Origin: Patescibacteria group bacterium
Lineage (GTDB): Bacteria; Patescibacteriota; UBA1384; XYA2-FULL-43-10; 1-14-0-10-43-13
Assembly (NCBI GenBank): GCA_041649155.1
Contig: JBAZNP010000001.1
Span: 67,581 to 131,580, forward strand
Direction: 5' to 3'
Length of the DNA stretch: 64,000 nt
Positions 146 to 56,831 of this stretch are shown in pieces (the stretch's first letter is position 1; the number at the start of each line of letters is the position of its first letter). Both the position numbers and the translations under genes were made by a program. The notes below the pieces were generated by a model. The model saw nothing but the letters and a program-made list of their open reading frames with translations. It was not told where the DNA came from and did not search any database.

Positions 146-269
146 ATTAAATTCTTGGATGAAGACTTCAAAAAAGAAAATGGATATTTACGTTCTATAG
201 AGCTCTCTAAAAAATATGGTTTATATAGACAGAATTATTGCGGCTGCCAATACTCGCTACAAAACTCAA

Positions 270-27586: not shown

Positions 27587-28444
27587 ATGAAAAAGAGCTT
27601 GATTTTGTGTTTGATCACAGTTGTAAGCGTGGGCATATTGGCACCCACTCCAATCAGAGCAAGTGAAGAAGGACGACGCAATGTTGCTTATCTGACAGGC
27701 GTATTGCTTGGCGGAGCGATTTACACCGGTAATCCATATGCAATCGGAGCAACAGGATCCGGAACGCTTTATTCCTTGAAACGATTGGGCGATGAAATCA
27801 ATAATCGCCACCAGCGGGAGAAATATTATCAGCCACAAGCCCGTCAACCTCAGAACTGTCCATCTCCATGCCAACAGCCAGCATATTGTCCTGCACAATA
27901 TCAACAAGTAGCATGCTGTCCGACTTGCGGTCAAAGTCAGACATACTCAAATTGCGGACCAAGAGGACAAAATTGTTCTGTCAACCAGCCTCCGCAGTAT
28001 GTCTATTACCCGACCACAGCTCAATGCAATAACTACGACAGTCGTGACCCTGACGAGTTAATTCCCAATACGGCTTCAGAGTCTTCGCATCAGAATTTCT
28101 CGGTTGGATACAATGGCAACAATCCAACATTTCGCTTCAATCGCTCAGGAGGGCAACGCACAAGCTATGTCCGCAGAGGAAACAAACAAAAACAATCGCA
28201 AAAAGCGCAAAAAGTGATAGTGGTCTATGTAGATGCTAATGGTTATCCGATACAGCAAAATGCCGGTTATCAGCCGCAACCAACATATCAACGTGACCCC
28301 GATCAGTTGGTTCCTGTCAGCGCTTCAGATTCATCTCATCAGAATTTCTCGGTTGGATACAACGGTAACAATCCAACATCTTACCTCAATCGTTCAGGCG
28401 GTCAACGCATAAGTTATGCTCGCAGAGGCAACTTAAGAAATTAA
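27587..28444 (+). CDS. Secreted protein with a Cys/Gln/Pro-rich linker and two ~75-aa tandem repeats
   Basis: Signal peptide. Internal repeats …RDPDELIPNTASESSHQNFSVGYNGNNPT…RSGGQR.SY.RRGN occur twice. Confidence 0.6.
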   Translation: MKKSLILCLITVVSVGILAPTPIRASEEGRRNVAYLTGVLLGGAIYTGNPYAIGATGSGTLYSLKRLGDEINNRHQREKYYQPQARQPQNCPSPCQQPAYCPAQYQQVACCPTCGQSQTYSNCGPRGQNCSVNQPPQYVYYPTTAQCNNYDSRDPDELIPNTASESSHQNFSVGYNGNNPTFRFNRSGGQRTSYVRRGNKQKQSQKAQKVIVVYVDANGYPIQQNAGYQPQPTYQRDPDQLVPVSASDSSHQNFSVGYNGNNPTSYLNRSGGQRISYARRGNLRN

Positions 28445-28466
28445 TACGCAAACCGCCAACGAACTC

Positions 28467-41081: not shown

Positions 41082-41524
41082 CTATCCTCCAAATTGTCGG
41101 GTATTAACATTTTTCTTGTTTTATCATCGATATATTCAAACCTTAGCTCTACTGTCCTTGATGGCAGAATTTCTTTTATTTTATCGGGCCATTCCAGTAA
41201 AATGACAGCATCTTTATTTTCGAAAAGTTCATCTATTCCAATAGAATAGGCATCCTGTATTGATCCCATTCTATAACAATCAATATGAACTAAAAAACTG
41301 ATTTTTTGCTGATTTTCCGGCAAAGAATATTTTTTTAGTATGACAAAAGTTGGGCTGGTGATATTTTCTTTTATGCCCAAAGCACTAGCAAATCCCTTGG
41401 TAAATGTTGTTTTTCCACTTCCCAAGTCACCTTCCAGAGCAAAAACATCGCCTGGCTTCGCTTTAAAAGCTAAATCGCGGGCAATTTTAAAAGTTTCCTC
41501 TTCGCTTTTAGAAATATATTCCAT
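41078..41524 (-). CDS. tsaE: tRNA t6A biosynthesis ATPase TsaE
   Basis: Walker A GDLGSGKTTFTKG, 148 aa. Confidence 0.85.
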   Translation of the reverse strand: MEYISKSEEETFKIARDLAFKAKPGDVFALEGDLGSGKTTFTKGFASALGIKENITSPTFVILKKYSLPENQQKISFLVHIDCYRMGSIQDAYSIGIDELFENKDAVILLEWPDKIKEILPSRTVELRFEYIDDKTRKMLIPDNLEDR

Positions 41525-42744
41525 AGTATTGTTATAAATAAACCGATAGCTGGGTATATTAGTTGCTCTTCTCCTGCCCTGGGCAATTGATCTTCCGAGG
41601 CCACTATTTTAACATCATCTTGATCAATTGGCAAGATTCGATATTCATCTTTATATTGCGAAACGATCCCTGCAACTTCAACCTGATCACCTTTTTTCAT
41701 CTTAGGCTTGTTAATGCCCGTGGTTTTATTTATTACAACTTTAATTTCTGATTTGCCATCGCTAATATAAAATGTGTTCCCAGATGTTTCCGTTACAATT
41801 CCTGCCGTCTTAATATATGCGCCTTCATTTTCTTCGCCGATGTCAGATATCGTAATCTCTGTTGGGGTAACTGGATCAGTATGATTTAGTATGACGATAC
41901 TATCGGCACTACTAATTTTAACCCTTCTTTCATTATTTATTTGCGAAAGTTCACCAGTTACAGAAACCACATCCCCCAAAGAAAGCGTGGGGAAGTTTTT
42001 GCCATAACAATAAACCTGTATCCCTCCAGTTTCATCCTGTATATAGAAATATTGCGACGACAAAACCCCCGGCAAAGTTGTTACCGTACCTGTAACTATA
42101 ACATCTTCACCATCCTCCAAAGCCCTTGTGTCTTTAATATTCAAGGTTTCATCCGAAACTTCATCCGGATCATCTACAATTTCATCCACAATCTCTCGAT
42201 ATTCCGATCCGGGCGTCGGCAACGCTGGGACAAAATCAATGCTGTTATTGCCAGTAACTAAAGCATTTAGTTTTCTGGTAATAGATTCATTTGTTTTAGG
42301 AGCTTCGGCATTTTCCGATATATTATTTAAGACATCTTTGTCTTCATAGTCTCCATAAAATACCTTGTCTACGATCGTTGAATTAATTTTGTCTTTTAAT
42401 ATCATGCAATCGCCGCTATCATTCAAACCAGAAAAATAAATAACAGTATACTCTCCAGACCCCAAAACTCCGTTCAATTCATGTGGTTTATGATTATTAT
42501 CCTCCAGCGTATAATCAGACGAATCAACACTCTCCTCAGTGGGATTAAAAAGTTCAATCCATTCACCATTTTCGCAACTTGATTTTGTGCATAGCTCATT
42601 TATTAAAATATGATCCGCAATACTACCATCTGCAGCAGAAACACTTTTTGAACCCAAAAATATCGCTGCTAAAAAAGCGATAATATAAAATAGCGGTTTA
42701 ATAGCTATCTTAACCCGTCCCCTCCTAAACATAATCCACCTCAA
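41470..42744 (-). CDS. Secreted lamin-tail-domain (LTD) protein
   Basis: Signal peptide and the LTD signature …HILINELCT…NGEWIELFNPTE…. Its 3' end overlaps the annotated tsaE start by 55 nt. Confidence 0.55.
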   Translation of the reverse strand: MRWIMFRRGRVKIAIKPLFYIIAFLAAIFLGSKSVSAADGSIADHILINELCTKSSCENGEWIELFNPTEESVDSSDYTLEDNNHKPHELNGVLGSGEYTVIYFSGLNDSGDCMILKDKINSTIVDKVFYGDYEDKDVLNNISENAEAPKTNESITRKLNALVTGNNSIDFVPALPTPGSEYREIVDEIVDDPDEVSDETLNIKDTRALEDGEDVIVTGTVTTLPGVLSSQYFYIQDETGGIQVYCYGKNFPTLSLGDVVSVTGELSQINNERRVKISSADSIVILNHTDPVTPTEITISDIGEENEGAYIKTAGIVTETSGNTFYISDGKSEIKVVINKTTGINKPKMKKGDQVEVAGIVSQYKDEYRILPIDQDDVKIVASEDQLPRAGEEQLIYPAIGLFITILWNIFLKAKRKLLKLPAI

Positions 42745-42831
42745 ACGTTCTTTAATTAATTCGATAATTAAAGAATAATCGACAGGACATTAAGAAAAGT
42801 TAAAAATTATTAGAATTCAATGCTCTTAAAT

Positions 42832-42869
42832 ATCCTAAATAACAAGCTATAGCATACTAATCGGGATAC
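42832..42869. repeat. Copy A of the AAGCTATAGC…TAATCGGGATA palindromic repeat family
   Basis: tatcctaaataacaagctatagcatactaatcgggata, read directly. Related copies at 43433, 43716 and 44846. Confidence 0.45.
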
Positions 42870-42886
42870 CATGATAAAATGTTAAT

Positions 42887-43420
42887 ATGCGAATGTCGAA
42901 AAACCAAAAAAATGTGCTAAAAATAATTGGCAAGAGCATTGTTCTAGCATCGGCACTGTTTGCTCCAAATATTATCCAGATAATGAGACCTAAAAATGCC
43001 AGGGAGAAATACAAGCACAGCAGAACTATCAAAAAGCTTTTTGATGATGAAATTATATACCTGTTCGGCGAAGAAATAAGGCTGACTAAAAAAGGGAAAG
43101 AATTGCTTGGCGTTATTCAGATTGAGGACATTCAAATATTCCCAAAAGATGAATGGAATGGAGTCTGGCATATAGTTTGTTATGATGTGCCAGAAGGCAA
43201 AAAGACAGCCAGGGATTATTTTCGAGCGAAGTTAGCTGAGGTTGGTTTTAAGTTTATTCAAGACAGCATGTGGGTTTATCCATATGAGTGCAAAGAGGAA
43301 ATCGCCATTATCTCTCAAAATCTGGGCATTGCCCCTTTCGTTGCGTACCTTAACACCGACTATCTACCCCAACAAGAGAGGCTAATTCGTCACTTTCAAC
43401 TCAAAAAAAAGAATCTATAA
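42887..43420 (+). CDS. Membrane-anchored protein with a PaaX_C-like (Cas2-fold) domain
   Basis: …WNGVWHIVCYDVPEGKKTARDYFRAKLAEVGFKFIQDSMWVYP… matches the W..W.(I/L)V.(Y/F)D(V/I)PE…R…L…GF…Q.S(V/M)W pattern of PaaX C-terminal/Cas2-like domains. An N-terminal TM segment precedes it. Confidence 0.45.
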   Translation: MRMSKNQKNVLKIIGKSIVLASALFAPNIIQIMRPKNAREKYKHSRTIKKLFDDEIIYLFGEEIRLTKKGKELLGVIQIEDIQIFPKDEWNGVWHIVCYDVPEGKKTARDYFRAKLAEVGFKFIQDSMWVYPYECKEEIAIISQNLGIAPFVAYLNTDYLPQQERLIRHFQLKKKNL

Positions 43421-43432
43421 TTTTATTAATAA

Positions 43433-43472
43433 CTATCCCAAATAGCATGCTATAGCTTGTTAATCGGGATAG
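43433..43472. repeat. Copy B of the AAGCTATAGC…TAATCGGGATAG repeat, with inverted CTATCCC/GGGATAG ends
   Basis: Read directly. Confidence 0.45.
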
Positions 43473-43561
43473 TTGAGAATTAGAAATATTAGAATGAAGG
43501 GATTTGAATGTTGGAATTTTGGACCGAAGATGTGTTGAAGATGTTCGGGATGTGTTCGGTT

Positions 43562-43658
43562 TTATCCACAGCCCTGCGCACAAATTATAGACAATATCAT
43601 ATATTTGAGATCAAATAGAGCAATTCATGTGTTCGGTTTCTGTTCGCACTTATCCACA
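43562..43658 (+). promoter_or_regulatory. Two perfect-consensus DnaA boxes (TTATCCACA at 43562-43570 and 43650-43658). Each is preceded by a GATGTGTTCGGTTT-like iteron.
   Basis: Exact 9-mers in the same orientation, about 88 bp apart, in a repeat-rich non-coding stretch. Confidence 0.4.
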
Positions 43659-43672
43659 GGCGATGATTTTTA

Positions 43673-43760
43673 TTTAATTCCATAATACCATATCTGGCTT
43701 GAGTACAAAGTATACTAAATAAGAAGCTATAGCTTGTTAATCAGGATAGTTGAGGATTAA
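43673..43760. repeat. Copy C of an ~88-bp repeat (ttaattccataataccatatctggcttg.gtacaaag.ata.caaataagaagctatagc…taatc.ggatag)
   Basis: About 90% identical to 44797-44885. Confidence 0.55.
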
Positions 43761-43879
43761 AAATATTGGAATATTGGAATGTTAGAATTATTGAATTATT
43801 TTTTTTAAATTAATCATAAAACGCGAAATTTCGAGCTTGCAGGAGAACCCCTTATCCCGCTCGATTACAGTGGGTGTAG

Positions 43880-44251
43880 CTAACTTGGCCAAATGACGCC
43901 GATAATGACCGTGATAGCAAATAAAACAAGAGAAATAAGCGCCATTACTTTTGCATTTTTCTTTTGCTCAGAAAAACGGCTTAAAATAAGCAGAAATATA
44001 GACAACAAGATTATTCCGGGAATATTTAACCCAACAGAATAAACCCAATTTGGGAAGTCATGATAACTGTTTGAGTTTATAGTTTTAACGGTCATGATCA
44101 TAAGCAAGATATTCGAAATTACAAAACCAATAAATACTAGGTAGGTTATAAACTTTGTAATTACTAAAACAGCACCGGGCTTACTCTTTTGTGGTTCTGG
44201 TGCTTGATTGCTTTGAGATAAACCTTGATAAGGGTCGTTTTGTGTCTCCAT
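43880..44251 (-). CDS. hypothetical membrane protein (Q/P-rich N-terminus, 3 TM segments)
   Basis: 123 aa, with the same architecture as 44392..44796. Confidence 0.5.
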   Translation of the reverse strand: METQNDPYQGLSQSNQAPEPQKSKPGAVLVITKFITYLVFIGFVISNILLMIMTVKTINSNSYHDFPNWVYSVGLNIPGIILLSIFLLILSRFSEQKKNAKVMALISLVLFAITVIIGVIWPS

Positions 44252-44324
44252 CTTCCTCCTTTTTTATTTGTCCTTATTTTACCATTTTCATAATGTTATT
44301 AATGATTTTTGTTGAGTTATTTTC

Positions 44325-44385
44325 TTAAATATTTTCAAAAAGCCTAATCTCGTGCTTGCGAGAGAACGTCCACGAAAGCTCAGTA
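44325..44385. repeat. R-repeat copy 1 (aaatattttcaaaaagcctaatctcgtgcttgcgagagaacgtcc…)
   Basis: About 80% identical to 44962-45025. Both lie at the 3' ends of minus-strand small genes. Confidence 0.45.
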
Positions 44386-44391
44386 ACTTTT

Positions 44392-44796
44392 TTAGCCGAA
44401 TGCGCCCATAAACAATAAAACTCCTGCAATATACAAAACAAATAGAACTATGATTTGAATTAAGGGTTTTAACAACCATTTCCAAGCCTTATTTTTAATA
44501 GCCAAGATTATACCTGCAACTAGATATATTGACTGCAGCAAAAATAAAAATTCTATTATATATCCCAAACCATCAGTCAAATCTATAAATGGAAAGAATG
44601 TAGATATGAATAAAAAAGCCCACAAACACGATAGTACAATAAAGGCTGTATTGAATATCTTTTCCCAAAACCGTGGACCAATCGAACCTAAAACCTTTGA
44701 ATTGTTATTTTGCTGTCCGCCCGATGCGTTGGGCTGCACTTGCTGGTCGTATTGCAATGGTTGATTTATTGGATCTTCTGTCATTTCCCTCCTCAA
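44392..44796 (-). CDS. hypothetical membrane protein (Q/N-rich N-terminus, 3-4 TM segments)
   Basis: 134 aa. A possible paralog of 43880..44251 at the architectural level. Confidence 0.5.
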   Translation of the reverse strand: MRREMTEDPINQPLQYDQQVQPNASGGQQNNNSKVLGSIGPRFWEKIFNTAFIVLSCLWAFLFISTFFPFIDLTDGLGYIIEFLFLLQSIYLVAGIILAIKNKAWKWLLKPLIQIIVLFVLYIAGVLLFMGAFG

Positions 44797-44885
44797 TAAT
44801 TTTATTTAATTCCATAATACCATATCTGGCTTGGGTACAAAGCATACCAAATAAGAAGCTATAGCATACTAATCGGGATAGCGGT
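44797..44885. repeat. Copy D of the ~88-bp repeat
   Basis: See 43673-43760. Confidence 0.55.
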
Positions 44886-44961
44886 AGAGATTAAAGTCTT
44901 ATTTTAGAGCAGGTAAGATAAGAAATAAGACGAGAAAAATGAAGTGTCGTCAAAAAACACA

Positions 44962-45025
44962 AGAAATTTACTCAAATATTTTCAAAAATCCTAATTTTGT
45001 GCTTGTGAAAAAACGTCCCCTAAGC
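44962..45025. repeat. R-repeat copy 2
   Basis: See 44325-44385. Confidence 0.45.
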
Positions 45026-45214
45026 TCCACTTTCGGTTTCTGATTTTTGTTTATGTTCCTTACAGTTTTCACAATTAAATATCTCGTCTCTATGAAATTC
45101 GTGGTTGCATTTTGGGTATTTATAAACCGTTTTTGATTCAAAAATTGTACCTGGTGCACCATCATTTTTTTCAAGTTCTACTTCGCTAAGGTATATGCAA
45201 TCTTTCTTATACAT
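45020..45214 (-). CDS. 64-aa zinc-ribbon-like small protein
   Basis: Cys/His cluster C…CNHEFH…CENC. RBS AGAGGA. Confidence 0.45.
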   Translation of the reverse strand: MYKKDCIYLSEVELEKNDGAPGTIFESKTVYKYPKCNHEFHRDEIFNCENCKEHKQKSETESGA

Positions 45215-45228
45215 GCTTGTCCTCTATT

Positions 45229-45393
45229 TTAATTTTTTTCTATATCTAAATATTCCAGATCGTTTTTATATTCTGGTTTGGTGTCACCATTATCGTAAAC
45301 AAAATCAAGAATGTGAGTTTTCGGATTCGCCCATGATTCAATTTCACAATGCCCAATCACTCCGTCACTATTTTTAACTTTCACTGAGACCAT
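45229..45393 (-). CDS. 54-aa hypothetical small protein
   Basis: GGAGGG RBS 5 nt upstream of the ATG. MVSVKVKNSDGVIGHCEIESW… Not in the ORF track. Confidence 0.4.
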   Translation of the reverse strand: MVSVKVKNSDGVIGHCEIESWANPKTHILDFVYDNGDTKPEYKNDLEYLDIEKN

Positions 45394-45412
45394 AATTACC
45401 CTCCAAAAATTA

Positions 45413-45577
45413 CTATAATAATTTTTTAATATTGCTTAATTCACATTTATTAGTATGGACGAAATCGATCATTCCACATGATGGACATTTTAATGTTGAG
45501 TCACCTCTTTCTCCATTAGTCTGAAAATCAAGACTCTCTTCGTGTAAATAATCTTCGTACTCTTTATTTAGCTTCAT
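45413..45577 (-). CDS. 54-aa zinc-ribbon small protein (CPSCG…C)
   Basis: AAGGAG RBS 5 nt before MKLNKEYEDY… The track's longer N-terminus is rejected. Confidence 0.45.
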   Translation of the reverse strand: MKLNKEYEDYLHEESLDFQTNGERGDSTLKCPSCGMIDFVHTNKCELSNIKKLL

Positions 45578-45731
45578 TTTTCTCCTTTTTTGCGAAAAAC
45601 AATTCAACCATTTAACTATTCAACAAGTTAACGGACCCATTATGCCAAACATACCCCAAACAGAGCAAGTTGTTTTCTTATCGCCAAAACCGTATTTAAT
45701 AGAAAACCGTCCCCTAAACTACTTGTTCACC

Positions 45732-46367
45732 CTAGAATTTCCCTTCAATTTTAGATGTTGTCCTTTTGACATTTATATTGCCGTGGCGACCTCTTTCTCT
45801 CGGATTATTAAAATAATTTCCGTTTAACTCACTGCCTCTGTTGAGTATTGCTAGTAAAGCAGTGCCAGTATGATCCCTCATATCATCGTCAGGTGCAGGT
45901 GCTGAAGTTCTATTCTGATATACGTATACCAATTCATGGTTCTCGTTGTTGTTCCGGCATATGTTGGCAATTAGGTTATAAGAACCGGACCTCTGAGTGT
46001 AAAGATTTACTTTAATAGAAGTTAAGCTTTGTTTGATTTCAATTACGGTTGGGTATTTTGTTTTTTCCTTGTCGTAACTGCTAGTGAGAAAGCCCTCGTA
46101 TCTACCGTTAACATTTGGGATTCCAACCAATTTTTTTATTAAAGGAAGTTTCCATAAATAAACATTAAACAGCCAAAAGAAAAGCAACAAAATCAATAGT
46201 GTCGTTGGAGCTTCAAACAAACCGAAAGAATAAATTTTGTAAAGATAATTTTCGTGCGGTAATTTTTCTATCCAAAAAATTAGACCTGACGATACCCATG
46301 ACGCTGGGGCAGTAAACACGACACAAAAAATAAAATAAAATTTACTCGTTAGGCGGAATGGCTTCAT
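45732..46367 (-). CDS. CBASS-type effector: two N-terminal TM helices plus a beta-rich C-terminal domain (Cap15-like)
   Basis: Two hydrophobic helices in the first 80 aa, then a polar beta-rich domain. It lies 11 nt downstream of the SMODS cyclase gene. Confidence 0.55.
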   Translation of the reverse strand: MKPFRLTSKFYFIFCVVFTAPASWVSSGLIFWIEKLPHENYLYKIYSFGLFEAPTTLLILLLFFWLFNVYLWKLPLIKKLVGIPNVNGRYEGFLTSSYDKEKTKYPTVIEIKQSLTSIKVNLYTQRSGSYNLIANICRNNNENHELVYVYQNRTSAPAPDDDMRDHTGTALLAILNRGSELNGNYFNNPRERGRHGNINVKRTTSKIEGKF

Positions 46368-46378
46368 AAATCTCCCTG

Positions 46379-47242
46379 TTAAATATTAAAGGCTTTGTCC
46401 CAAGCAGTTACAGCTTCTTGAGCCGTGGTTGCCCTATAGGCAGCTAGGCTTTGCACTAAAGAACTAGCAAGAGTATTTCTGAATAATTGGCTATCCCAAT
46501 TATTTGTAATATGTTCAGTGCCGCAAACGCTTGGCACTTGAGTTTCCTGTGCTAGTGATTCTAAAATATGGCTCCCAACCAAAATGAATGAACTAACATG
46601 GTCGTTGGCGAAATTTTCATTGGGGGACGCATGAACCAGAGACTCTATTTGGTATGAAGAAACAACATCCGCATCCCCAAAATGATTTTTTGACCAATTT
46701 TTAAACATTCGAACGACAGGCTTAAAGTTTTCATTAGTTTTATTGTGTTTTTCCGCTCCATTTTTGATGTGAGTGCGAGGACTGTTAACTTTTTCCAAGC
46801 CGGTTTTGAAGGAATATATGGCAATGGGATCCGTCATTATGTCATGGGTGATTTTTACTGCGGGGACAACGTCTGCCTTAAATGTCGATGTTGAAACTTC
46901 TATGCATTTCCCGCTATCGCTTCGTTTTATAGTCCAGTCATAACGATTTTGATTCTCGAGTTTTTCCTCGATTTCTGCAAAAATACACTCCCATGCTATG
47001 CTAGTTGGACAGACTATTCCAGAATGAACACTGCTAAAAGTATCTTTTCGTATGGCGACAATATCAACATCATTGATATCTGAAATCGAGGTATCGTTAG
47101 CATAAGATCCCTGTAGGAATGTTTGATGGTCGACGAGTAATTCTTGGATGTAGTTTTGAAGATTGGCAACTTCTCTCCGTTTTGTATCAGAGATGCTTTT
47201 TGTATGTTTTAGAACATGCTGAACAGGCACATTGTGAGTCAT
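46379..47242 (-). CDS. SMODS-domain nucleotidyltransferase (CD-NTase-like cyclic-oligonucleotide synthase)
   Basis: LQGSYANDTSISDINDVDIVAI fits the GS-x(10)-DxD pattern, with a third acidic residue in …FKADVVPAV…. RBS GGGAGGGAG. Confidence 0.7.
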   Translation of the reverse strand: MTHNVPVQHVLKHTKSISDTKRREVANLQNYIQELLVDHQTFLQGSYANDTSISDINDVDIVAIRKDTFSSVHSGIVCPTSIAWECIFAEIEEKLENQNRYDWTIKRSDSGKCIEVSTSTFKADVVPAVKITHDIMTDPIAIYSFKTGLEKVNSPRTHIKNGAEKHNKTNENFKPVVRMFKNWSKNHFGDADVVSSYQIESLVHASPNENFANDHVSSFILVGSHILESLAQETQVPSVCGTEHITNNWDSQLFRNTLASSLVQSLAAYRATTAQEAVTAWDKAFNI

Positions 47243-47259
47243 TGCTCCCTCCCTTTCAA

Positions 47260-47904
47260 TTAAATTAGTTTCGGTTTTTTAATGACTTGGATGACTTTAC
47301 CGCAGATAGAATAGTTTTCCATCTCATCAATTCCAATAAATATTGGTGGAAAGTTTTTTGTTGACTCTGGCATTAAGACGATCTGTTCGTTTTCTCTGTC
47401 TTCGAAATACTTTTTTATATTTGCCATGCCATCAATTATGGAAACAATGTAGTCCCCATTACGAGGTTGCTGATACTCCGAATCAACGACAACATAGTCG
47501 CCATTTTCGATGTTTTTATCGCCGTTAACCTTAGCCTTGTTCATCGAATCGCCGGATGCTTCAAGGATAAAAATATTCCTGGTTTTGGTTAACAACTTTT
47601 TTGATACCTTAAGGTACCCTTCGACATAATTGTCTGCAAAATGAGTAGCGAATCCGCAATCTGCTGCGCCATATATTGGCAGAGACAATAAACCCTCGGA
47701 ACTTTCGGAGAGTTTTTTAACTACATCAATCTTTTTAGAATCAGGATTATATTTAACAAGACCTCTTTTTTCCAGCTGATCAAGGTGATGTTTTACATTT
47801 TGTGGGTGGTTAATCCCTGCCAGAATACCAAGCTGTCTCAGGGTAACATCCCCAATTTTATTGTCAGTTAAAAGTTCTAACAGTTTTTTTTGTGTTGAAT
47901 GCAT
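47260..47904 (-). CDS. LexA-like repressor (wHTH plus S24 peptidase)
   Basis: N-terminal winged helix (…RQLGILAGINHPQNVKHHLDQLEKRGLV…). C-terminal S24 fold with an ASGDSM nucleophile motif and a downstream Lys. Confidence 0.75.
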   Translation of the reverse strand: MHSTQKKLLELLTDNKIGDVTLRQLGILAGINHPQNVKHHLDQLEKRGLVKYNPDSKKIDVVKKLSESSEGLLSLPIYGAADCGFATHFADNYVEGYLKVSKKLLTKTRNIFILEASGDSMNKAKVNGDKNIENGDYVVVDSEYQQPRNGDYIVSIIDGMANIKKYFEDRENEQIVLMPESTKNFPPIFIGIDEMENYSICGKVIQVIKKPKLI

Positions 47905-48098
47905 TAATTCTCCTTATGGTTCAATTATAGCAAACTAAACATTATCTGTAAAGTTATGTTATCTATTGACAGACTATTAGTTTTTAAAATAAACTGAAAA
48001 TTAAGAGGTCGCTGAGTTAGCATTTTTACATCTAACTTGGAGGTGGACAGCGTTTGGTCGGTCCTCAGATTATCAGTAATTCAAAGGAGAATTGAAAG

Positions 48099-48383
48099 AT
48101 GTTATCCAATGGATTTTCAGCTGAGATTGTAGAAAAAGTTTGGCAAAAAGGTTTAATTGTCTTGGGACAAAACTCCAACCTTATGCGCAAAGATGCTTGT
48201 GGCGCTTTCATAAAGAGAAATCTTTATGGGGTAAGGGATGGGCAATCTGGCAATGGTTGGGAAATAGACCACATTGACCCGAACGGTTCCGACGATCTCA
48301 GTAACCTTAGGCCGTTACAATGGTACAACAACGTTACCAAAAGTGATGGTGTGTTAAAATGCGCAGTGAGAGCTAGTGCTTAG
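48099..48383 (+). CDS. HNH endonuclease (small)
   Basis: …EIDHIDPNGSDDLSNLRPLQWYNN… is the HNH motif. 94 aa. Confidence 0.7.
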   Translation: MLSNGFSAEIVEKVWQKGLIVLGQNSNLMRKDACGAFIKRNLYGVRDGQSGNGWEIDHIDPNGSDDLSNLRPLQWYNNVTKSDGVLKCAVRASA

Positions 48384-48390
48384 CGCAACC

Positions 48391-48425
48391 AAAAAGCAGG
48401 TGGGTAATTTGCCTGCTTTTTGAAT
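48391..48425 (+). terminator. Intrinsic terminator (aaaaagcagg-tgggtaatt-tgcctgcttttt)
   Basis: Perfect stem plus T-tract. Confidence 0.65.
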
Positions 48426-48860
48426 TCAAATATTAATAATTACAAACCAAAAAACAAAAGATAAACCGGCAACAAAACTTAGCCAAAAAAGCCAAAAAAA
48501 GAACACATAAAATATGGTTTGTGCTTTACCCGGCTTCTTTTCTTCTATGAATTTTGTTGCCGTCATATATTCATGAGGTGATTTCTCGTAGTCCAATAGA
48601 AAATTTTGTTTATTCAGATCAATAATCGAAATTTCACTTAGCAAATACCTCATTACTATATTGCTAAGAGTGCATACCAATAGTGCAATCCATGCAGATT
48701 TTAGTAGATTTACCTCTACTGGAGTTTCAAAGTAATTCAAAAGAGATAGGCTTGATACTAGGGCGCCAGCAGAGATTGTTAATATTGCGTTAAACAAGGC
48801 ATCCCTATTCGTCATGACCATTCGCCTTGATAAATTGAGTTCTTTATACCTCTCGTCCAT
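48426..48860 (-). CDS. hypothetical membrane protein
   Basis: 144 aa, 4 TM segments. Confidence 0.45.
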   Translation of the reverse strand: MDERYKELNLSRRMVMTNRDALFNAILTISAGALVSSLSLLNYFETPVEVNLLKSAWIALLVCTLSNIVMRYLLSEISIIDLNKQNFLLDYEKSPHEYMTATKFIEEKKPGKAQTIFYVFFFWLFWLSFVAGLSFVFWFVIINI

Positions 48861-48863
48861 AGG

Positions 48864-49142
48864 TTAAACAATCTTGTTAATCTCTTTCATAATTCTGTCT
48901 GTTTCAGCAAGAGCAATGATTATCTTTTGGTAATGCTCAATATCTTCGGAATTTAATGTTCTATTTTTGCGGTCTTTAAGCCACTTTTGAGCTGGTTGAT
49001 AGCCACCAATATAAGAATTCCATGCAGCTTCTGGAACATTGCCAAAATATTGACTACCATTTATGTAGACTCTGACGGCGCTAAACTCAATTTTCTTAAT
49101 TCCCTTGATCATTTTTGCAAAACATGAAAGAAAAAATCTCAT
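48864..49142 (-). pseudogene. C-terminal remnant of a Type IIG/Type ISP restriction-modification enzyme
   Basis: …VPEAAWNSYIGGYQPAQKWLKDRKNRTLNSEDIEHYQKII… matches the conserved extreme C-terminus of Type ISP/IIG enzymes. About 90 codons remain, with no catalytic domains. Confidence 0.55.
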
Positions 49143-49175
49143 TTTTCATCTTTATTGCTTTGATTTCCCTGTCAC

Positions 49176-49976
49176 TTAGATTATTACCTTTGCTTCTTCA
49201 TAAAGCATCGGCAAACAATTTTGCCTTAATCTGAATTTGGTACCGTGGTTATGGCCAGATCTGGCATCAAAATCCACAAGAACACAAGAATCTTCTATCG
49301 CCTTCAGGAAACCCTCAAAATTAAACTTCCTTAGCATCATAACTTTTGAATATTTATAGAACTCCCTTTTTCTTTCTGTCTTGACCTCAGCTTGAACATA
49401 AAAACAGTTAAGCAACTTGGTTCCAGCTTTATGTTTAAGATCATCAAAACCCCAGTAAGGTTGTGGGTCTAGTTCCTTGAACCCTATTTTTTCTTTAACA
49501 GAATCTAGCCATGCCCTATGTTTATCGTCGACTTTAGATGAATCAAAAGATACTAAAATCTTTTGTTCTTTGCGATCCACCTTAACCATGAACCCCCTAT
49601 CGGTCGGAGCATTACCGTTTATTGTCTGCCTAAAACTCATCTCTTCCAGCGAATATTTTCCACCCGCTTCTTGATGGTTCCATCCGTACTTAGGTAACAA
49701 CATTTGTGCGACAAAACCTACTGCCCTTGGCGATGGTTCCATGTGAAATAGAGTGGTTAGGGAACAGGTATTTAAACGCTGAGTTTTTAACTCCCACTCT
49801 GCAGCATTTGGAATTGGCAAATTATTTTCCTTGATACCGAGTAAATCTTCGAGAGTATTTCCTATGCCCCCACTATTTCCATGCCTTCCGTTTTTCACCC
49901 ACCCCATCTCAGAGATTTCTTTTAATCGCTTTATCAATGATTCCTTGGTATACAGTACTGGATCACTATTTTTCAT
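49176..49976 (-). CDS. MvaI/BcnI-family Type II restriction endonuclease
   Basis: GNTLEDLLGIKENN…AEWELK…TLFH..P block and the C-terminal …SGHNHG…LY pattern, as in R.BcnI/R.MvaI. Placed directly downstream of an m4C methylase. Confidence 0.6.
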   Translation of the reverse strand: MKNSDPVLYTKESLIKRLKEISEMGWVKNGRHGNSGGIGNTLEDLLGIKENNLPIPNAAEWELKTQRLNTCSLTTLFHMEPSPRAVGFVAQMLLPKYGWNHQEAGGKYSLEEMSFRQTINGNAPTDRGFMVKVDRKEQKILVSFDSSKVDDKHRAWLDSVKEKIGFKELDPQPYWGFDDLKHKAGTKLLNCFYVQAEVKTERKREFYKYSKVMMLRKFNFEGFLKAIEDSCVLVDFDARSGHNHGTKFRLRQNCLPMLYEEAKVII

Positions 49977-49982
49977 AATTCC

Positions 49983-50732
49983 TCATATATTTAATGTTGC
50001 TTGAGCAGTATGTCTTTTAATTCTTTTTTTAGACATTTCGCAATATTCAGGAGAAATATCAATGCCGATATAATCTCTTTTAGAATTAATTGCTGAAATG
50101 GCAGTTGTGCCAGAGCCCATAAAGGGATCCAGAATGACTTTGGCACTTGTTGATGAAACGATACGGTCGATTAATTTAACTGGAAAAGGCGCAGGATGGC
50201 CATTTCTCATTTCTTGAGTAAACTCCCATATATCGCCATAAGCATTTACCTTTGGGGCTAGCTTGAATTTGGGTTTAGCAATTAGATAAATTACTTCATA
50301 GGTAGGCAAGAAATAGCCAGCATTAAAATTTAGTCCGCCTTTTCTTCTCCAAATAATAATTTGTCTAACAGGAAAACCAACAACAATATCTTGCCTGTCT
50401 TGCAATAATCCTGCCTGAACTCGCCACTTATGGTTATAAAAAATGGCTCCAGTGTCGGGAATGATTCGTAACATTTCCGTTAAACAATCTCTTTGCCATT
50501 TCACATACTCCTCATGCGGCATACAATCATCATGATTTGTGTAACCATTTTGAAGTGCAGCATTGGCCCACTTACCACCTCGTCCATCTTTCATTCCATT
50601 ACCAGTGGAATTTTTTAGATTATATGGCGGAGAAGTCACAATTAAATCAACAGCTCCATCAGGAATCTGCTTCATTATTTCAACCGCATCACCACAAACA
50701 ATTTTGTTTAAAAAGTCTTCTGGATAGTTCAT
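49983..50732 (-). CDS. DNA N4-cytosine methyltransferase (beta-class, SPPY)
   Basis: DLIVTSPPYNL (motif IV) precedes FMGSGTT (motif I). Confidence 0.8.
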   Translation of the reverse strand: MNYPEDFLNKIVCGDAVEIMKQIPDGAVDLIVTSPPYNLKNSTGNGMKDGRGGKWANAALQNGYTNHDDCMPHEEYVKWQRDCLTEMLRIIPDTGAIFYNHKWRVQAGLLQDRQDIVVGFPVRQIIIWRRKGGLNFNAGYFLPTYEVIYLIAKPKFKLAPKVNAYGDIWEFTQEMRNGHPAPFPVKLIDRIVSSTSAKVILDPFMGSGTTAISAINSKRDYIGIDISPEYCEMSKKRIKRHTAQATLNI

Positions 50733-50796
50733 TGCTTTAAAAATTAATATCTACAATAAAATACTATCACCTTACGCTTGGATGGTAAACCATCAC

Positions 50797-51921
50797 TCAG
50801 GCCATCAACATCGCATCGCCATAGGAGAAGAAGCGGTATTTTTGCTCAATTGCTTCTTCGTACGCTTTTTTAATATTTTTACTGCCGGCGAATGCTGAAA
50901 CCAGCATAAGCAAAGTTGATTTGGGTAAATGAAAGTTAGTGATTACACCGTCGATACATTTAAATTTGTAGCCCGGATAGATGAAAATGTTGGTCCAACC
51001 GGAGAAGTTGAGAGTGGAAAGTGGAGAGTGGAGAGAGCTAAAAACAGTCTCCAGAACACGGGTGGAAGTGGTACCGACGGCGATGATTCTGCGGCCTTCT
51101 TTTTTGGCTTTAATAATTTTATCTGATTCTTCCTTTTTAACCGTATAATATTCCGAATGAATTTTATGATCCTCTATATTGCCTGCTTCAACTGGTGCAA
51201 AAGTGCCAAGACCAACGTGCAAAGTAACCTCGACAATTTCTATGCCCTTGGCTTTTATTTGATTTAATAATTCTTTGGTAAAATGAAGCCCGGCAGTTGG
51301 AGCAGCGGCACTACCGACTGGCTTAGCGTAAACTGTTTGATAATCTGTTTTGTCTTTTTCCGTATCATTTTTTCTTATATATGGCGGAAGCGGAGTGTGT
51401 CCGATTTTTTCAATTTCTTTAAAAAATTCTTCCCCGATGAGATTAAATTGAATTTTTGAAATTTTATTTTCGTTGCTAAGAACTTTTGCTTCTAGACACG
51501 AATCTTCAAAATTAATTTTCGTGCCTGGTTTTAAGTTTTTGCCAATAACTTCCCAAATGGAAGATTTACCATCTTGGATCCCCGCCTTCGCGGGGATGAC
51601 AGAATGAGAAGTGGGAATGACAAAGTGGGGGGCAGATATAACAGAATGAGAAACTTCTGAAATATTTTTGTTTAACAATATCTCTACCTTCCCGCCCGTG
51701 TCTTTTCTAAATCCGAATAATCTTGCCGGAAATACTTTTGAATTATTGACTACCAGCACGTCTCCACTTTTTAGGAAATCTATAATTTCATAAAAAGTAT
51801 GATGATTGACCGCACCGTTTTTCTTATCTAAAACTAAAAGCCGCGAATGATCTCGTGGCTTTGATGGCGATTTCGCAATCAGTTCCAGCGGCAAGTTGTA
51901 ATTAAAATCCGACAATTTCAT
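50797..51921 (-). CDS. queA: S-adenosylmethionine:tRNA ribosyltransferase-isomerase QueA, carrying an in-frame ~28-aa repeat-element insertion
   Basis: MKLSDFNYNLPLELIA… canonical start. The internal …SHSVISAPHFVIPTSHSVIPAKAGIQDGK… is encoded by copies of the TGTCATYCC hairpin element (51584-51670). Confidence 0.85.
   Translation of the reverse strand: MKLSDFNYNLPLELIAKSPSKPRDHSRLLVLDKKNGAVNHHTFYEIIDFLKSGDVLVVNNSKVFPARLFGFRKDTGGKVEILLNKNISEVSHSVISAPHFVIPTSHSVIPAKAGIQDGKSSIWEVIGKNLKPGTKINFEDSCLEAKVLSNENKISKIQFNLIGEEFFKEIEKIGHTPLPPYIRKNDTEKDKTDYQTVYAKPVGSAAAPTAGLHFTKELLNQIKAKGIEIVEVTLHVGLGTFAPVEAGNIEDHKIHSEYYTVKKEESDKIIKAKKEGRRIIAVGTTSTRVLETVFSSLHSPLSTLNFSGWTNIFIYPGYKFKCIDGVITNFHLPKSTLLMLVSAFAGSKNIKKAYEEAIEQKYRFFSYGDAMLMA
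51584..51670. repeat. TGTCATYCC-family repeat copies (hairpin atccccgc-gaag-gcggggat plus two TCTCATTCTGT units) inserted in-frame within queA
   Basis: Read directly. It shares the GGRATGACA core with the elements at 32-145, 24974-25015 and 55354-55455. Confidence 0.5.
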
Positions 51922-55353: not shown

Positions 55354-55455
55354 TTCCGGACTGTAGCTTGAGATCCGGAATCTATATAAATAGTTAATTA
55401 TAAATAATTAATTTCTGGATCCCAGACCTGCCTGCCTACCGGCAGGCAGGTCTGG
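55354..55455. repeat. MITE-like element with TGTCATTCC / GGGATGACG inverted termini and a 16-bp perfect internal palindrome (cccagacctgcctgcc-taccgg-ggcaggcaggtctggg)
   Basis: Read directly. It is the sibling of the element at 32-145 and lies intergenic between ruvA and the mutase gene. Confidence 0.5.
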
Positions 55456-55463
55456 GATGACGA

Positions 55464-56831
55464 TCATTTATTGCTTTCAATAAATTCGACCACTTCCGCT
55501 TTTTTTTGTTCCAAGAGTTCTGCTGATTTTGCTTCTAAATTTAATCTCAAAAGTGGCTCGGTGTTTGAACTTCGCAGATTAAAACGCCAGTCTGAATATT
55601 CGCAAGAAACTCCGTCGAGATGACTAATTTCACTGTCAACATATTTTTCTTCCGCTTTAGCCATTATCTCCTTAGCCTTTTCTGTAGTAAAATTAATTTC
55701 ACCGGTAATAAAATATTTGCTCTGGACATCACTTAATAGTTCCGATAAAGATTTATCCTCTTTTGATAATATTTCCAAAATCTGTAAAAGTGGAATCATG
55801 CCTGAATCTGCAAACCAAAAGTCGCGATAGTATGTATGACCGCTGGATTCACCGGAGAAAACTGCGTTTTCTTGTCTCATTAAAGTTTTGATAAAAGAAT
55901 GTCCAACTCGTCCGATAATTGATGAGCCGCCAGCATTTTTGGCAGCATCAATTAGTGCCCAAGTATATCTGGGATCGTATACAATTTTTGATGAAGGATT
56001 TTTCAGAAGCATATACTTGATTAGTAGTGTATTGGCAAAATACGAGTCTACAAATCTTCCATCTTCCGTAAAGAAAAACACACGATCTGCATCAGCATCC
56101 CATGCGACTCCTAAATCCGGTTTTTCTTTTTTGATTAATTCTATGGTTTCGATTCTGTTTTCAGGGACAAAAGGGTCTGGTCTACCTTTAGGAAAGTTGC
56201 CATCAGGCTCAGCGTTTAGCGGAACCAATGTTAAGGGTAGTTTCCCAATTTCAATCACTTTTTTGAGAACTTCTCCTTCAAAACCAAAATTAGCGTTATA
56301 AACTAACGATAACGGTTTTATCTTAGTTGCATCGATCCAAGTTAACACATAGTTGCAAAAATCATCTAAAACGTCTTTTTTGGTTACTGTTCCTTTTTTA
56401 TCTGATGAGATTTTTTCGCCAGTTGCGACAAAATCTCTGATTTCCTGTAAACCGGACTCGCTGGAAATTGGTTCCGCTCCTTCTTTTACCATTTTTGCGC
56501 CATGCCACTCAGCTGGATTATGGGAAGCTGTAACTTGAATACCTCCACCATAACCATAATTACCGGTAGCAAAATAGATCATTTCCGTTGAGATCAGACC
56601 GATGTCAACGACATCGACCCCAGCATCGATCAAGCCTTGGACCATGGCATCTTTTAGCTCTTCGGAATGCAATCGAACATCATAACCAATCACAACTGGT
56701 TTAGTCGGATTGCTCACCGAGACATAACCCTGCCCTATTGCATAAGCAATATCTTTGTCGATTTGATCAGGATAAATTCCCCTTATGTCATAAGCTTTAA
56801 AAATTGTTGGATCAAAATTTTCTCTGGACAT
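55464..56831 (-). CDS. Phosphoglucomutase/phosphomannomutase (alpha-D-phosphohexomutase)
   Basis: Active-site TASHNP, metal-binding DADADR, and sugar-binding GESSGH loops. Confidence 0.85.
   Translation of the reverse strand: MSRENFDPTIFKAYDIRGIYPDQIDKDIAYAIGQGYVSVSNPTKPVVIGYDVRLHSEELKDAMVQGLIDAGVDVVDIGLISTEMIYFATGNYGYGGGIQVTASHNPAEWHGAKMVKEGAEPISSESGLQEIRDFVATGEKISSDKKGTVTKKDVLDDFCNYVLTWIDATKIKPLSLVYNANFGFEGEVLKKVIEIGKLPLTLVPLNAEPDGNFPKGRPDPFVPENRIETIELIKKEKPDLGVAWDADADRVFFFTEDGRFVDSYFANTLLIKYMLLKNPSSKIVYDPRYTWALIDAAKNAGGSSIIGRVGHSFIKTLMRQENAVFSGESSGHTYYRDFWFADSGMIPLLQILEILSKEDKSLSELLSDVQSKYFITGEINFTTEKAKEIMAKAEEKYVDSEISHLDGVSCEYSDWRFNLRSSNTEPLLRLNLEAKSAELLEQKKAEVVEFIESNK

What the first reader, a model, noticed from the sequence alone, without database searches (positions are those of the whole stretch)
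42800..50750. Defence/accessory island between tsaE/LTD and queA
Within about 8 kb the sequence carries:
- A PaaX_C/Cas2-fold protein.
- Two paralogous Q-rich membrane proteins.
- Three tiny zinc-ribbon/small ORFs.
- The CBASS-like operon.
- An HNH nuclease.
- A Type ISP/IIG restriction-enzyme C-terminal remnant.
- A complete MvaI/BcnI-type restriction enzyme with an SPPY m4C methylase.

The island is flanked by housekeeping genes (tsaB/tsaE, queA), and the repeat families are concentrated here. An HsdR-like fragment at 17510 is a further decayed RM remnant elsewhere in the window.

The mix of intact and eroded defence genes suggests an actively turning-over immunity hotspot.
Basis: partly seen in the sequence, partly recalled or inferred. 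Interest (0 to 1): 0.55.

Follow-up and report, generated by a model that had tools for sequence, protein, structure and literature searches.

The report
Swappable anti-phage island beside queA
A small-genome (CPR/Patescibacteria) bacterium carries, between two housekeeping genes, an 8-kb patch of anti-virus genes that is empty or filled with different genes in its relatives; this is an ordinary defence hotspot, whose one unusual feature is a LexA-like repressor heading the CBASS suicide system.

Summary
Profile searches confirm these genes:
- a PaaX_M/Cas2-like protein
- a type I CBASS (CdnE-like cyclase plus Cap15 effector)
- an HNH protein
- a roughly 80-residue tail of a Type ISP/IIG enzyme
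- a complete MvaI-like restriction enzyme with an SPPY N4-cytosine methylase
- a separate HsdR fragment at 17510

Two corrections apply. The two Q-rich membrane proteins are not detectably paralogous. The repeats are confined to 42.8-45.0 kb.

The hotspot interpretation is supported. In four relatives queA abuts LTD or tsaE directly. One relative has a broken IS3-like transposase in the gap. The closest relative (flank proteins 81-84% identical) has a different 8.2-kb cassette there, with an AlwI restriction-modification system and PDC-S38. Homology with that relative breaks at the queA stop codon and at about 45022.

The swapped 5.8-kb cassette is a mosaic fragment of a CPR prophage- or satellite-like element family. 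That family has the layout serine recombinase, TerL-like gene, ParB-methylase, then an S24 repressor followed by variable defence cargo.

The S24 LexA/CI-like gene sits 17 nt upstream of the cyclase, behind the best promoter match in the region. The same arrangement occurs in three diverged loci.

The PaaX-like gene is a conserved CPR regulator with its own 38-nt palindromes. It is not cargo.

Overall this is a known kind of feature, with a possibly new CBASS regulator variant.

The parts
41470..42744 (-). Left flanking core gene: secreted LTD plus OB-fold protein, followed by tsaE and tsaB
   Evidence: Pfam LTD, tRNA_anti-codon and TsaE. Syntenic with queA in relatives.
42832..42868 (.). 38-nt palindrome, upstream copy. 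It overlaps the PaaX-like gene's promoter region and is a probable operator.
   Evidence: Repeat family D3. Same position relative to the gene in L083 and L111.
42887..43420 (+). PaaX-like regulator: low-confidence helix-and-hairpin N-terminus (putative wHTH) plus a Cas2-like PaaX_M domain. It lacks PaaX_C. It is a conserved CPR protein, not cargo.
   Evidence: 91 homologs at 55-90% identity; best fold match is PaaX 8a39. 96.5% identical in L083.
43435..43471 (.). Palindrome copy d1, just 3' of the PaaX-like gene
43668..43749 (.). 82-nt direct repeat, copy A. It contains palindrome copy d2a at 43712-43748.
   Evidence: Family D1, 91% identical to copy B.
43880..44251 (-). 123-aa protein with a Q/P-rich N-terminus and hydrophobic segments (TMQ1), function unknown
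   Evidence: Segment absent in L083.
44319..44376 (.). 58-nt hairpin repeat (D4) after TMQ2. Other copies lie at 43800-43857 and 44966-45023.
   Evidence: No significant RNA fold.
44392..44796 (-). 130-134-aa protein with a Q/P-rich N-terminus and hydrophobic segments (TMQ2). Not detectably related to TMQ1.
44800..44881 (.). 82-nt direct repeat, copy B. It contains palindrome copy d2b at 44844-44880 and lies immediately upstream of TMQ2.
44881..45023 (.). Highly conserved non-coding stretch ending in a D4 hairpin. It marks the left edge of the swapped cassette.
   Evidence: Alignment with L083. No Rfam hit and no fold signal.
45020..45214 (-). 64-aa small ORF with a Cys/His motif, last gene of the S24-CBASS gene string
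   Evidence: codon score 0.171. No homologs in the phage collection.
45229..45393 (-). 54-aa small ORF
   Evidence: codon score 0.29.
45413..45607 (-). 54-64-aa small ORF with CxxC...H...C. Its C-terminal 45 aa are 51% identical to the C-terminus of a 283-aa HNH-like protein that follows S24 in L108.
45732..46367 (-). CBASS effector Cap15: two N-terminal membrane helices (per the full-length 2TM effector profile) plus a cyclic-nucleotide-binding beta-barrel
46379..47242 (-). CD-NTase, CdnE-like, with an intact catalytic GS...DxD...D
47260..47904 (-). LexA/CI-like repressor: wHTH plus S24 autoprotease (Ser120, Lys164, Cys83-Gly84). It lies 17 nt upstream of the cyclase.
47924..47952 (-). Best sigma-70-like promoter match of the region (TTTACA-17-TATAAT with a TG extension), directly upstream of the S24 gene
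48099..48383 (+). 94-aa HNH-family protein, divergent from S24
48426..48860 (-). 129-144-aa hydrophobic (apparently membrane) protein with no family match
48864..49142 (-). Remnant: last ~80 residues of a Type ISP/IIG restriction-methylase
49176..49976 (-). MvaI/BcnI-family Type II restriction endonuclease, full length, closer to MvaI
49983..50732 (-). Beta-class SPPY DNA methyltransferase, probably N4-cytosine
50797..51921 (-). Right flanking core gene queA. Cassette homology with L083 resumes at its stop codon.

Best explanation
The region is a recurrent insertion site, a defence hotspot, between queA and the LTD-tsaE-tsaB genes of a CPR/Patescibacteria genome. It has two layers.

**Layer 1, 42.8-45.0 kb.** This is a conserved PaaX-like regulator with 38-nt palindromes that probably serve as its operators. 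A 1.1-kb insert carrying two small hydrophobic, probably membrane, proteins sits between 82-nt direct repeats.

**Layer 2, about 45022-50808.** This is a swappable 5.8-kb cassette. It is a truncated mosaic of a CPR prophage- or satellite-like element family. It holds an MvaI-like Type II restriction-modification pair, a decayed IIG remnant, a hydrophobic protein, an HNH protein, and a gene string of S24 repressor, CdnE-like cyclase, Cap15 and three small ORFs.

**How it works (inferred from the families).**
- The methylase marks host CCNGG-type sites with m4C, and the nuclease cuts unmarked incoming DNA.
- The cyclase is activated by infection and makes a cyclic nucleotide.
- Cap15 binds that nucleotide and disrupts the membrane, killing the cell before phage release.
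- The S24 protein represses its own strong promoter, and with it the co-transcribed CBASS genes.
- S24 self-cleaves on a DNA-damage signal, raising CBASS expression.

Cassette exchange most likely occurs by homologous recombination in the conserved flanks, because no recombinase gene is present.

**Shown here:** gene identities, empty and alternative sites in relatives, the breakpoints, the mosaic relationships, and the recurrence of the S24-cyclase-Cap15 arrangement.

**Inferred:** all biochemical activities, the regulation, and the route of exchange.
For: - **Gene assignments:**
- **Empty or different site in relatives:**
- **Breakpoints:** the queA stop codon and about 45022.
- **L107:** it shares the methylase (85% aa), MvaI-like enzyme (78%) and S24 (75%) in the same order. 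It has other cargo after S24 and lies next to ParB-methylase and TerL-like genes.
- **L098, L099, L100:** all share S24 (47-51%), then a small ORF, cyclase (61-67%) and Cap15 (50-52%), divergent from methylase and TerL-like genes. L100 also has a large serine recombinase. Their cyclases are only 60-69% identical to one another.
- **IMG/VR contigs L113, L115, L116:** they carry TerL-like, small-ORF and methylase genes next to S24, and L115 and L116 also have the serine recombinase. In L115 an AAA_21 ATPase and an OLD-like nuclease follow S24.
- **S24 active site:** the catalytic Ser and Lys and the Cys-Gly site are invariant in 23 homologs.
- **Promoter:** the best promoter match of the region lies directly upstream of S24.
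- **Cyclase active site:** the catalytic residues are invariant.
Against: - No recombinase, terminase or att-like repeat bounds the cassette in the window, so the element origin is inferred from mosaic similarity only.
- Turnover is shown only between relatives of about 81-84% protein identity.
- The window's S24 is closer to S24s that have non-CBASS cargo (59-76%) than to CBASS-linked ones (about 50%). S24 therefore looks like the element's general repressor rather than a dedicated CBASS partner.
- No conserved operator was found upstream of S24.
- The REase has Asn where MvaI and BcnI have the first catalytic Asp, so its activity is uncertain.
- CCWGG and CCSGG are equally depleted (0.53 and 0.43), so specificity is unresolved.
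- No experiment supports any of the proposed activities.
Confidence: 0.82

Rival explanations
1. The S24 protein is simply the organism's housekeeping LexA. It lies next to CBASS by accident, and CBASS is expressed independently.
For: It aligns over its full length with LexA (TIGR00498 at 5e-25; E. coli LexA at 5e-10). Hundreds of CPR homologs exist, some named LexA by automated annotation.
Against: - It scores below the LexA equivalog cut-off (88 versus 111 bits).
- It lies inside the swapped cassette, which L083 lacks at this site.
- All nine homolog contexts examined are in mobile or defence settings, three of them in IMG/VR.
- Only 17 nt separate it from the cyclase, and the same order recurs in three diverged loci.
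Confidence: 0.12
2. The region is an intact, currently mobile prophage or satellite rather than a decayed fragment in a hotspot.
For: Related loci carry a serine recombinase, TerL-like genes and a ParB-methylase next to the S24 gene, and some are classed as viral.
Against: tblastn of those recombinase, TerL-like and ParB-methylase proteins against the window finds only methylase-domain similarity to the SPPY methylase. The cassette is 5.8 kb and contains a truncated IIG gene. No flanking direct repeats mark its ends.
Confidence: 0.06
3. The gene set is core to this lineage, and the relatives' empty sites reflect secondary loss or assembly gaps.
For: Two close relatives' contigs end at the island edge (L003 inside queA, L085 inside LTD), so they are uninformative.
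Against: Four independent contigs read straight from queA into LTD or tsaE with gaps of 15-180 nt. One has an IS in the gap, and the closest relative has unrelated genes there. Apart from the PaaX-like gene (also in L083 and L090), none of the island proteins recurs in any queA- or LTD-anchored locus.
Confidence: 0.03
4. The PaaX-like/Cas2-like protein and its palindromes are the machinery that creates the hotspot, through site-specific capture of cassettes, rather than an ordinary regulator.
For: - The gene and its palindromes travel together in three genomes. In each, defence genes begin just beyond the 3' palindromes.
- The membrane-protein insert is bracketed by 82-nt direct repeats that contain a palindrome copy.
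- The domain has a Cas2 fold.
Against: - This amounts to only two independent sites.
- A 63%-identical homolog (L112) has housekeeping neighbours and no palindrome.
- No nuclease or recombinase motif was shown.
- One palindrome overlaps the gene's own promoter, as expected of an autoregulator.
- The other edge of the cassette, at queA, has no palindrome.
Confidence: 0.08

Closest known systems
Type I CBASS with a CdnE cyclase and Cap15 effector (e.g. Staphylococcus schleiferi CdnE03-Cap15, PMC10686824; Cap15 structure 7n34)
   Same: It is a two-gene core of a CD-NTase plus a 2TM beta-barrel Cap15. The best solved matches are CdnE and Cap15. There are no Cap2, Cap3 or HORMA accessory genes.
   Different: The cyclase shows only remote sequence similarity to the solved CdnE structures (best phmmer E 2.7e-13) and belongs to a CPR-wide subfamily. 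It is headed by an S24 repressor gene and followed by three small ORFs. Its trigger and product are unknown.
CBASS-associated DNA-damage regulators CapH+CapP, CapW/BrxR and CapK+CapS (PMC13373217; bioRxiv 10.1101/2022.04.27.489752)
   Same: A repressor gene sits at the head of an abortive-infection operon. The protease-inactivated-repressor logic is the same as in CapH/CapP. A related CPR locus (L104) has an HTH_3 plus Peptidase_M78 pair in front of the same cyclase-Cap15 pair.
   Different: Here a single wHTH-S24 self-cleaving protein, on the same strand as the operon, takes that place. I found no paper linking S24/LexA-like proteins to CBASS. Regulation is untested.
Phage lambda cI-rexA-rexB (from my own knowledge)
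   Same: An S24-type immunity repressor is co-transcribed with an abortive-infection module downstream of it.
   Different: There is no intact prophage here, the cargo is CBASS rather than Rex, and the host is a CPR bacterium.
Defence hotspots flanked by core genes, and cargo slots in phages and satellites (P2/P4-type hotspots; from my own knowledge). CPR defensome survey: PMC12259885.
   Same: Conserved flanks, an empty site in some relatives, unrelated defence cargo in others, and a mix of intact and decayed genes.
   Different: This is documented in an ultrasmall CPR genome, and no integrase is present at the site.
MvaI (CCWGG) and BcnI (CCSGG) restriction enzymes, PDB 2oa9 and 2odh
   Same: Full-length MvaI_BcnI domain, a conserved E-x-K motif, and an adjacent N4-type methylase.
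   Different: It shows only remote sequence similarity to MvaI (phmmer E 3e-20 over the full length). Asn stands at the position of the first catalytic Asp. The recognition site is undetermined.

Membership tests
CBASS (type I) | CD-NTase with catalytic GS...[DE]x[DE]...D | tested here: met
   PADLOC cyclase 1.5e-26. CdnE structures 2.7e-13. G45, S46, D58, D60 and D124 are invariant in 22 homologs. Pfam SMODS alone is just below its cut-off (25.0 versus 26.5).
CBASS (type I) | Adjacent effector with a cyclic-nucleotide sensor domain | tested here: met
   Cap15_CD_rec 4.6e-23. PADLOC 2TM effector 2.1e-48 over its full length. Cap15 structure 7n34 at 5.8e-5.
CBASS (type I) | No Cap2/Cap3 or HORMA/TRIP13 accessory genes | tested here: met
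   No such hits among the island proteins.
CBASS (type I) | Cyclic nucleotide synthesis and phage protection | not testable with these tools
   Needs biochemistry and infection assays.
Type II RM, MvaI/BcnI family | Full-length REase domain with an adjacent cognate methylase | tested here: met
   MvaI_BcnI 3.9e-67, profile positions 1-227 of 227. The methylase lies 6 nt upstream. A PADLOC model of a fused methylase-REase covers both genes.
Type II RM, MvaI/BcnI family | Catalytic D...E-x-K triad | tested here: inconclusive
   E62 and K64 are present. Asn57 aligns with the Asp, and this is conserved in the 78%-identical L107 homolog. The identification of the triad rests on my recollection of the MvaI and BcnI papers.
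Type II RM, MvaI/BcnI family | Recognition site CCWGG or CCSGG | tested here: inconclusive
   Observed/expected is 0.53 for CCWGG and 0.43 for CCSGG. Both are depleted, so they cannot be told apart. The REase is closer to MvaI.
N4-cytosine DNA methyltransferase | SPPY catalytic motif and similarity to known m4C enzymes | tested here: met
   The sequence contains VTSPPYN. The best solved match is a 'DNA cytosine-N4 methyltransferase', 8s9n, at 1.9e-36 over its full length.
Type ISP / IIG restriction-methylase | Intact multi-domain enzyme of about 1000 aa | tested here: not met
   Only profile positions 993-1075 of 1096 remain, in a 92-aa ORF that abuts the MvaI gene. It is a remnant.
LexA (TIGR00498) | Score above the equivalog cut-off | tested here: not met
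   88.3 bits against a cut-off of 110.95.
LexA/CI/UmuD S24 autoproteases | Ser-Lys dyad and a cleavage site in the linker | tested here: met
   S120, K164 and A81-x-C83-G84 are invariant in 23 homologs. The protein aligns with LexA and UmuD. Self-cleavage was not tested.
CapH+CapP | HTH repressor plus M78 (ImmA-like) metallopeptidase pair | tested here: not met
   The pair is absent from the window. It is present in the related locus L104.
PaaX | N-terminal wHTH, middle and C-terminal domains, and the equivalog score | tested here: not met
   Only PaaX_M is found. TIGR02277 scores 24.5 bits against a cut-off of 264.55. The protein is 177 aa against about 300 for PaaX.
Cas2 | Score above the cut-off and cas1 or a CRISPR array nearby | tested here: not met
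   16-19.8 bits, below the cut-offs of 23.8 and 24.5. No array-like repeats occur in the window.
Defence island / hotspot | Conserved core flanks, with the site empty or differently filled in relatives | tested here: met
Defence island / hotspot | Variation among strains of one species | not testable with these tools
   No same-species genomes were found. The closest relative has about 81-84% flank protein identity.
HNH endonuclease | Match to the HNH profile | tested here: met
   The protein alone scores E 0.027. In its family, 17 of 31 members hit Pfam HNH (best 5.2e-8). The family profile hits the HNH domains of Cas8f-HNH at 0.011.

The most novel reading that the evidence does not exclude
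S24 (LexA/CI-type) self-cleaving repressors would be a fourth class of DNA-damage-responsive controller of CBASS and other abortive-infection cargo. They would be a single-protein counterpart of CapH+CapP. They would define a 'repressor then cargo slot' architecture in a previously undescribed family of CPR prophage- or satellite-like elements. Fragments of these elements would seed chromosomal defence hotspots in ultrasmall bacteria.
Probability: 0.35. Interest if true: 0.6.

Novelty: new member of a known kind. Interest (0 to 1): 0.4.

Why it matters
CPR bacteria have tiny genomes, and they were reported to carry few defence systems per genome but a high density of them per megabase (PMC12259885). 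This locus gives a concrete example of how such genomes keep a changeable immune repertoire. One site beside queA is empty in some relatives, holds an IS in another, and holds two unrelated restriction/CBASS cassettes in two neighbouring species. The cargo can be traced to a family of phage-like elements.

The S24-headed CBASS operon gives a testable hypothesis for a new, one-protein route that couples DNA damage to CBASS expression. The other genes that follow S24 homologs in related elements are candidates for new defence systems.

Tried and rejected
- **Paralogy of the two membrane proteins:** BLASTP gives E = 22, so it is rejected.
- **Structured RNA in the repeats and the conserved 44881-45020 stretch:** no Rfam hit at E <= 1 and fold z-scores near 0, so this was dropped.
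- **The 34-codon and 60-codon ORFs in the repeat region:** non-coding codon usage.
- **Restriction-site avoidance as a way to assign CCWGG or CCSGG:** both sites are equally depleted, so the test is uninformative.
- **Compositional anomaly:** none found.
- **tRNA or integrase at the island edges:** none found.
- **Operator palindromes upstream of S24 genes in seven loci:** nothing convincing. Only a short stretch around the -35 element is shared with L107.
- **CD-NTase relatives in IMG/VR:** none, by single protein or by profile.
- **S24 and the small ORF against cultured phages:** only weak hits or none.
- **HNH protein alone against solved structures:** nothing. The family profile was needed.
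- **High PaaX-like identity to L083 (96.5%) as a sign of recent transfer:** rejected, because the whole family is slowly evolving (55-90% identity across CPR).
- **Homologs of the small ORFs and the 144-aa hydrophobic protein:** none in any fetched locus, apart from one 45-aa match.

Full report
**What is there**

The window comes from a 603-kb metagenomic contig (ENA ERZ27247363). NCBI labels it 'Patescibacteria group bacterium', and its nearest MAGs are labelled Candidatus Saccharibacteria.

- A 177-aa protein has a PaaX_M (Cas2-like) domain at 2.7e-20. This is PaaX_M, not PaaX_C.
- Cap15 scores 4.6e-23 in Pfam and 2.1e-48 as a PADLOC 2TM effector.
- The CD-NTase scores 1.5e-26 as a PADLOC cyclase. 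Its best solved relative is CdnE at 2.7e-13.
- A 92-aa ORF matches only the last ~80 positions of Type ISP/IIG enzymes.
- A full-length MvaI_BcnI endonuclease scores 3.9e-67. The adjacent SPPY methylase best matches a solved cytosine-N4 methylase at 1.9e-36.
- The 94-aa HNH assignment is weak for the protein alone (0.027). It holds at family level: 1097 representative clusters exist, and 17 of 31 sampled members hit Pfam HNH.
- The fragment at 17510 is a Type I HsdR piece.
- The three small ORFs have gene-like codon usage but no recognisable family.

Two points need correcting. The two Q-rich hydrophobic proteins show no sequence similarity to each other (BLASTP E = 22). All repeat families sit at 42832-45023 rather than across the island.

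It ends 17 nt before the cyclase gene.

**Is it a variable island?**

Yes. I anchored on queA and on the LTD protein and fetched relatives.

- queA runs straight into LTD in L082 (77 nt), L086 (15 nt) and L087 (110 nt). It runs straight into tsaE in L014 (180 nt).
- L002 has a 1.4-kb gap holding a split IS3-like transposase.
- L083 is the closest relative, with flank proteins 81-84% identical and queA DNA 90% identical. It has an 8.2-kb insert at the same place with different content: two D12 methylases, an AlwI-type endonuclease, PDC-S38 and six unknown proteins.
- DNA similarity between the window and L083 stops just past the queA stop codon. It resumes at about 45022, immediately after a conserved hairpin repeat.
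- The exchanged unit is therefore about 45022-50808. G+C content is flat across it, and all homologs come from CPR genomes. This points to exchange within the group.

**Where the cassette came from**

Context look-ups show that the cassette is a mosaic of modules found in a family of CPR mobile elements.

- L107 carries the same methylase (85% aa), MvaI-like enzyme (78%) and S24 protein (75%) in the same order. It has unrelated genes after S24, and ParB-methylase and TerL-like genes beside it.
- L098, L099 and L100 carry S24 (47-51%), a small ORF, the cyclase (61-67%) and Cap15 (50-52%). This block is divergent from a methylase and a TerL-like gene, and L100 also has a large serine recombinase.
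- Three IMG/VR contigs have the TerL-like, small-ORF and methylase genes next to S24, and two of them (L115, L116) also have the serine recombinase. In L115, S24 is followed by an AAA_21 ATPase and an OLD-like nuclease.
- Other S24 homologs are preceded by Dcm/Vsr or NgoFVII/Z1 systems and followed by further unknown genes.
- The window itself has no recombinase or terminase, and it contains a truncated IIG gene.

I therefore read the cassette as a decayed fragment, not a live element.

**The S24-CBASS link**

The S24 protein aligns over its full length with LexA but scores below the LexA equivalog cut-off (88 versus 111 bits). Its Ser120, Lys164 and Cys83-Gly84 are invariant in 23 homologs. 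The best promoter match of the whole 8 kb lies directly upstream of it: TTTACA-17-TATAAT with a TG extension, followed by an AAGGAG ribosome-binding site. The S24, cyclase and Cap15 order recurs in four loci whose cyclases are only 60-69% identical to one another.

In L104 the same cyclase-Cap15 pair sits behind a divergent HTH_3 plus Peptidase_M78 pair, the CapH/CapP type. The held literature lists CapW/BrxR, CapH+CapP and CapK+CapS as CBASS-adjacent damage-responsive regulators. I found no mention of S24 proteins in this role.

The simplest inference is that S24 autoregulates a transcript that includes CBASS and releases it after DNA damage. The layout resembles lambda cI-rexAB. Against a dedicated partnership, the window's S24 is closer to S24s with non-CBASS cargo (59-76%) than to the CBASS-linked ones (about 50%). 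No shared operator was found.

**The left part of the region**

The PaaX-like protein belongs to a slowly evolving CPR family of 91 homologs, 55-90% identical. Its 96.5% identity to L083 is therefore not evidence of transfer. Its predicted structure best matches E. coli PaaX and then Cas2/VapD, although only the Cas2-like half is modelled with confidence.

A 38-nt palindrome (TATCCCAAATAAGAAGCTATAGCTTACTAATCGGGATA) occurs only around this gene. There are four copies in the window and three each in L083 and L111. One copy overlaps the promoter and two lie 3' of the gene.

In the window, the segment with the two hydrophobic proteins is bracketed by 82-nt direct repeats that contain a palindrome copy. 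L083 lacks this segment. In L111 the same unit borders a Type I RM with an SduA_C gene. In L112, which has a more distant homolog, neither the palindromes nor defence neighbours are present. Whether the palindromes act as operators, terminators or recombination sites remains open.

**Restriction enzyme details**

The endonuclease is closer to MvaI (3e-20, full length) than to BcnI (2e-6, N-terminus only). The residue aligned with the first catalytic Asp is Asn, both here and in the L107 homolog. CCWGG and CCSGG are both at about half of their Markov expectation, so the recognition site cannot be assigned.

**Verdict**

The finding is a well-documented example of a known phenomenon in a little-studied group. 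The one feature worth following up is an S24 repressor heading CBASS and other cargo in a family of CPR elements.

Noticed in passing
window 51565-51660 (inside queA, minus strand): queA carries a 31-aa in-frame insertion containing the GC-rich hairpin GTCATCCCCGCGAAGGCGGGGATCC, which translates to 'VIPAKAGIQ'. The insertion is absent from queA of L002, L004 and L082, and the window-L083 DNA alignment breaks at this spot. It is a single copy in the window and looks like a small palindromic element inserted in frame.
   Followed up: partly
window 17510-17728 (+): An isolated 72-aa ORF covers helicase motifs V-VI of a Type I HsdR (PADLOC REase_I 5.1e-15, profile positions 485-539 of 807). It is a second decayed restriction remnant far from the island.
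   Followed up: partly
window 113-147 and 55430-55464: A 35-nt GC-rich palindromic repeat (GCCTGCCTGCCGGTAGGCAGGTCTGG...) is present twice, 55 kb apart, at 89% identity.
   Followed up: no
window 28043-28196 and 28292-28445: Two 154-nt copies at 78% identity lie 249 nt apart inside ORF 27587-28444. This is an internal repeat of a protein-coding gene.
   Followed up: no
L098, L099, L100, L107, L113, L115, L116: A family of CPR elements has the layout large serine recombinase, TerL-like gene, small ORF, ParB/N6_N4 methylase, then divergently an S24 repressor followed by variable cargo. The cargo includes CBASS, an AAA_21 ATPase with an OLD-like nuclease, SIR2, a Ymh-like protein and unknown genes. 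Three members are in IMG/VR. The unknown genes after S24 are candidate new defence genes.
   Followed up: partly
L104/L105 4621-7509: The same CdnE-like cyclase and Cap15 pair (50% and 36% identical) sits behind a divergent HTH_3 plus Peptidase_M78 (CapH/CapP-like) pair and a DUF2188 small gene, next to a serine recombinase.
   Followed up: no
L111 10001-18951: The PaaX-like gene with three palindrome copies borders a Type I RM operon (HsdM, HsdS, HsdR) that has an SduA_C (Shedu-like) gene embedded in it.
   Followed up: no
window 44881-45020: A non-coding stretch is more conserved with L083 than the neighbouring genes are (56 nt identical). It has no Rfam match and no significant predicted fold, and its function is unknown.
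   Followed up: partly
L002 7821-8810: A split IS3-like transposase (35-40% identical to IS3-family transposases on plasmids) occupies exactly the queA-LTD gap in this relative.
   Followed up: partly
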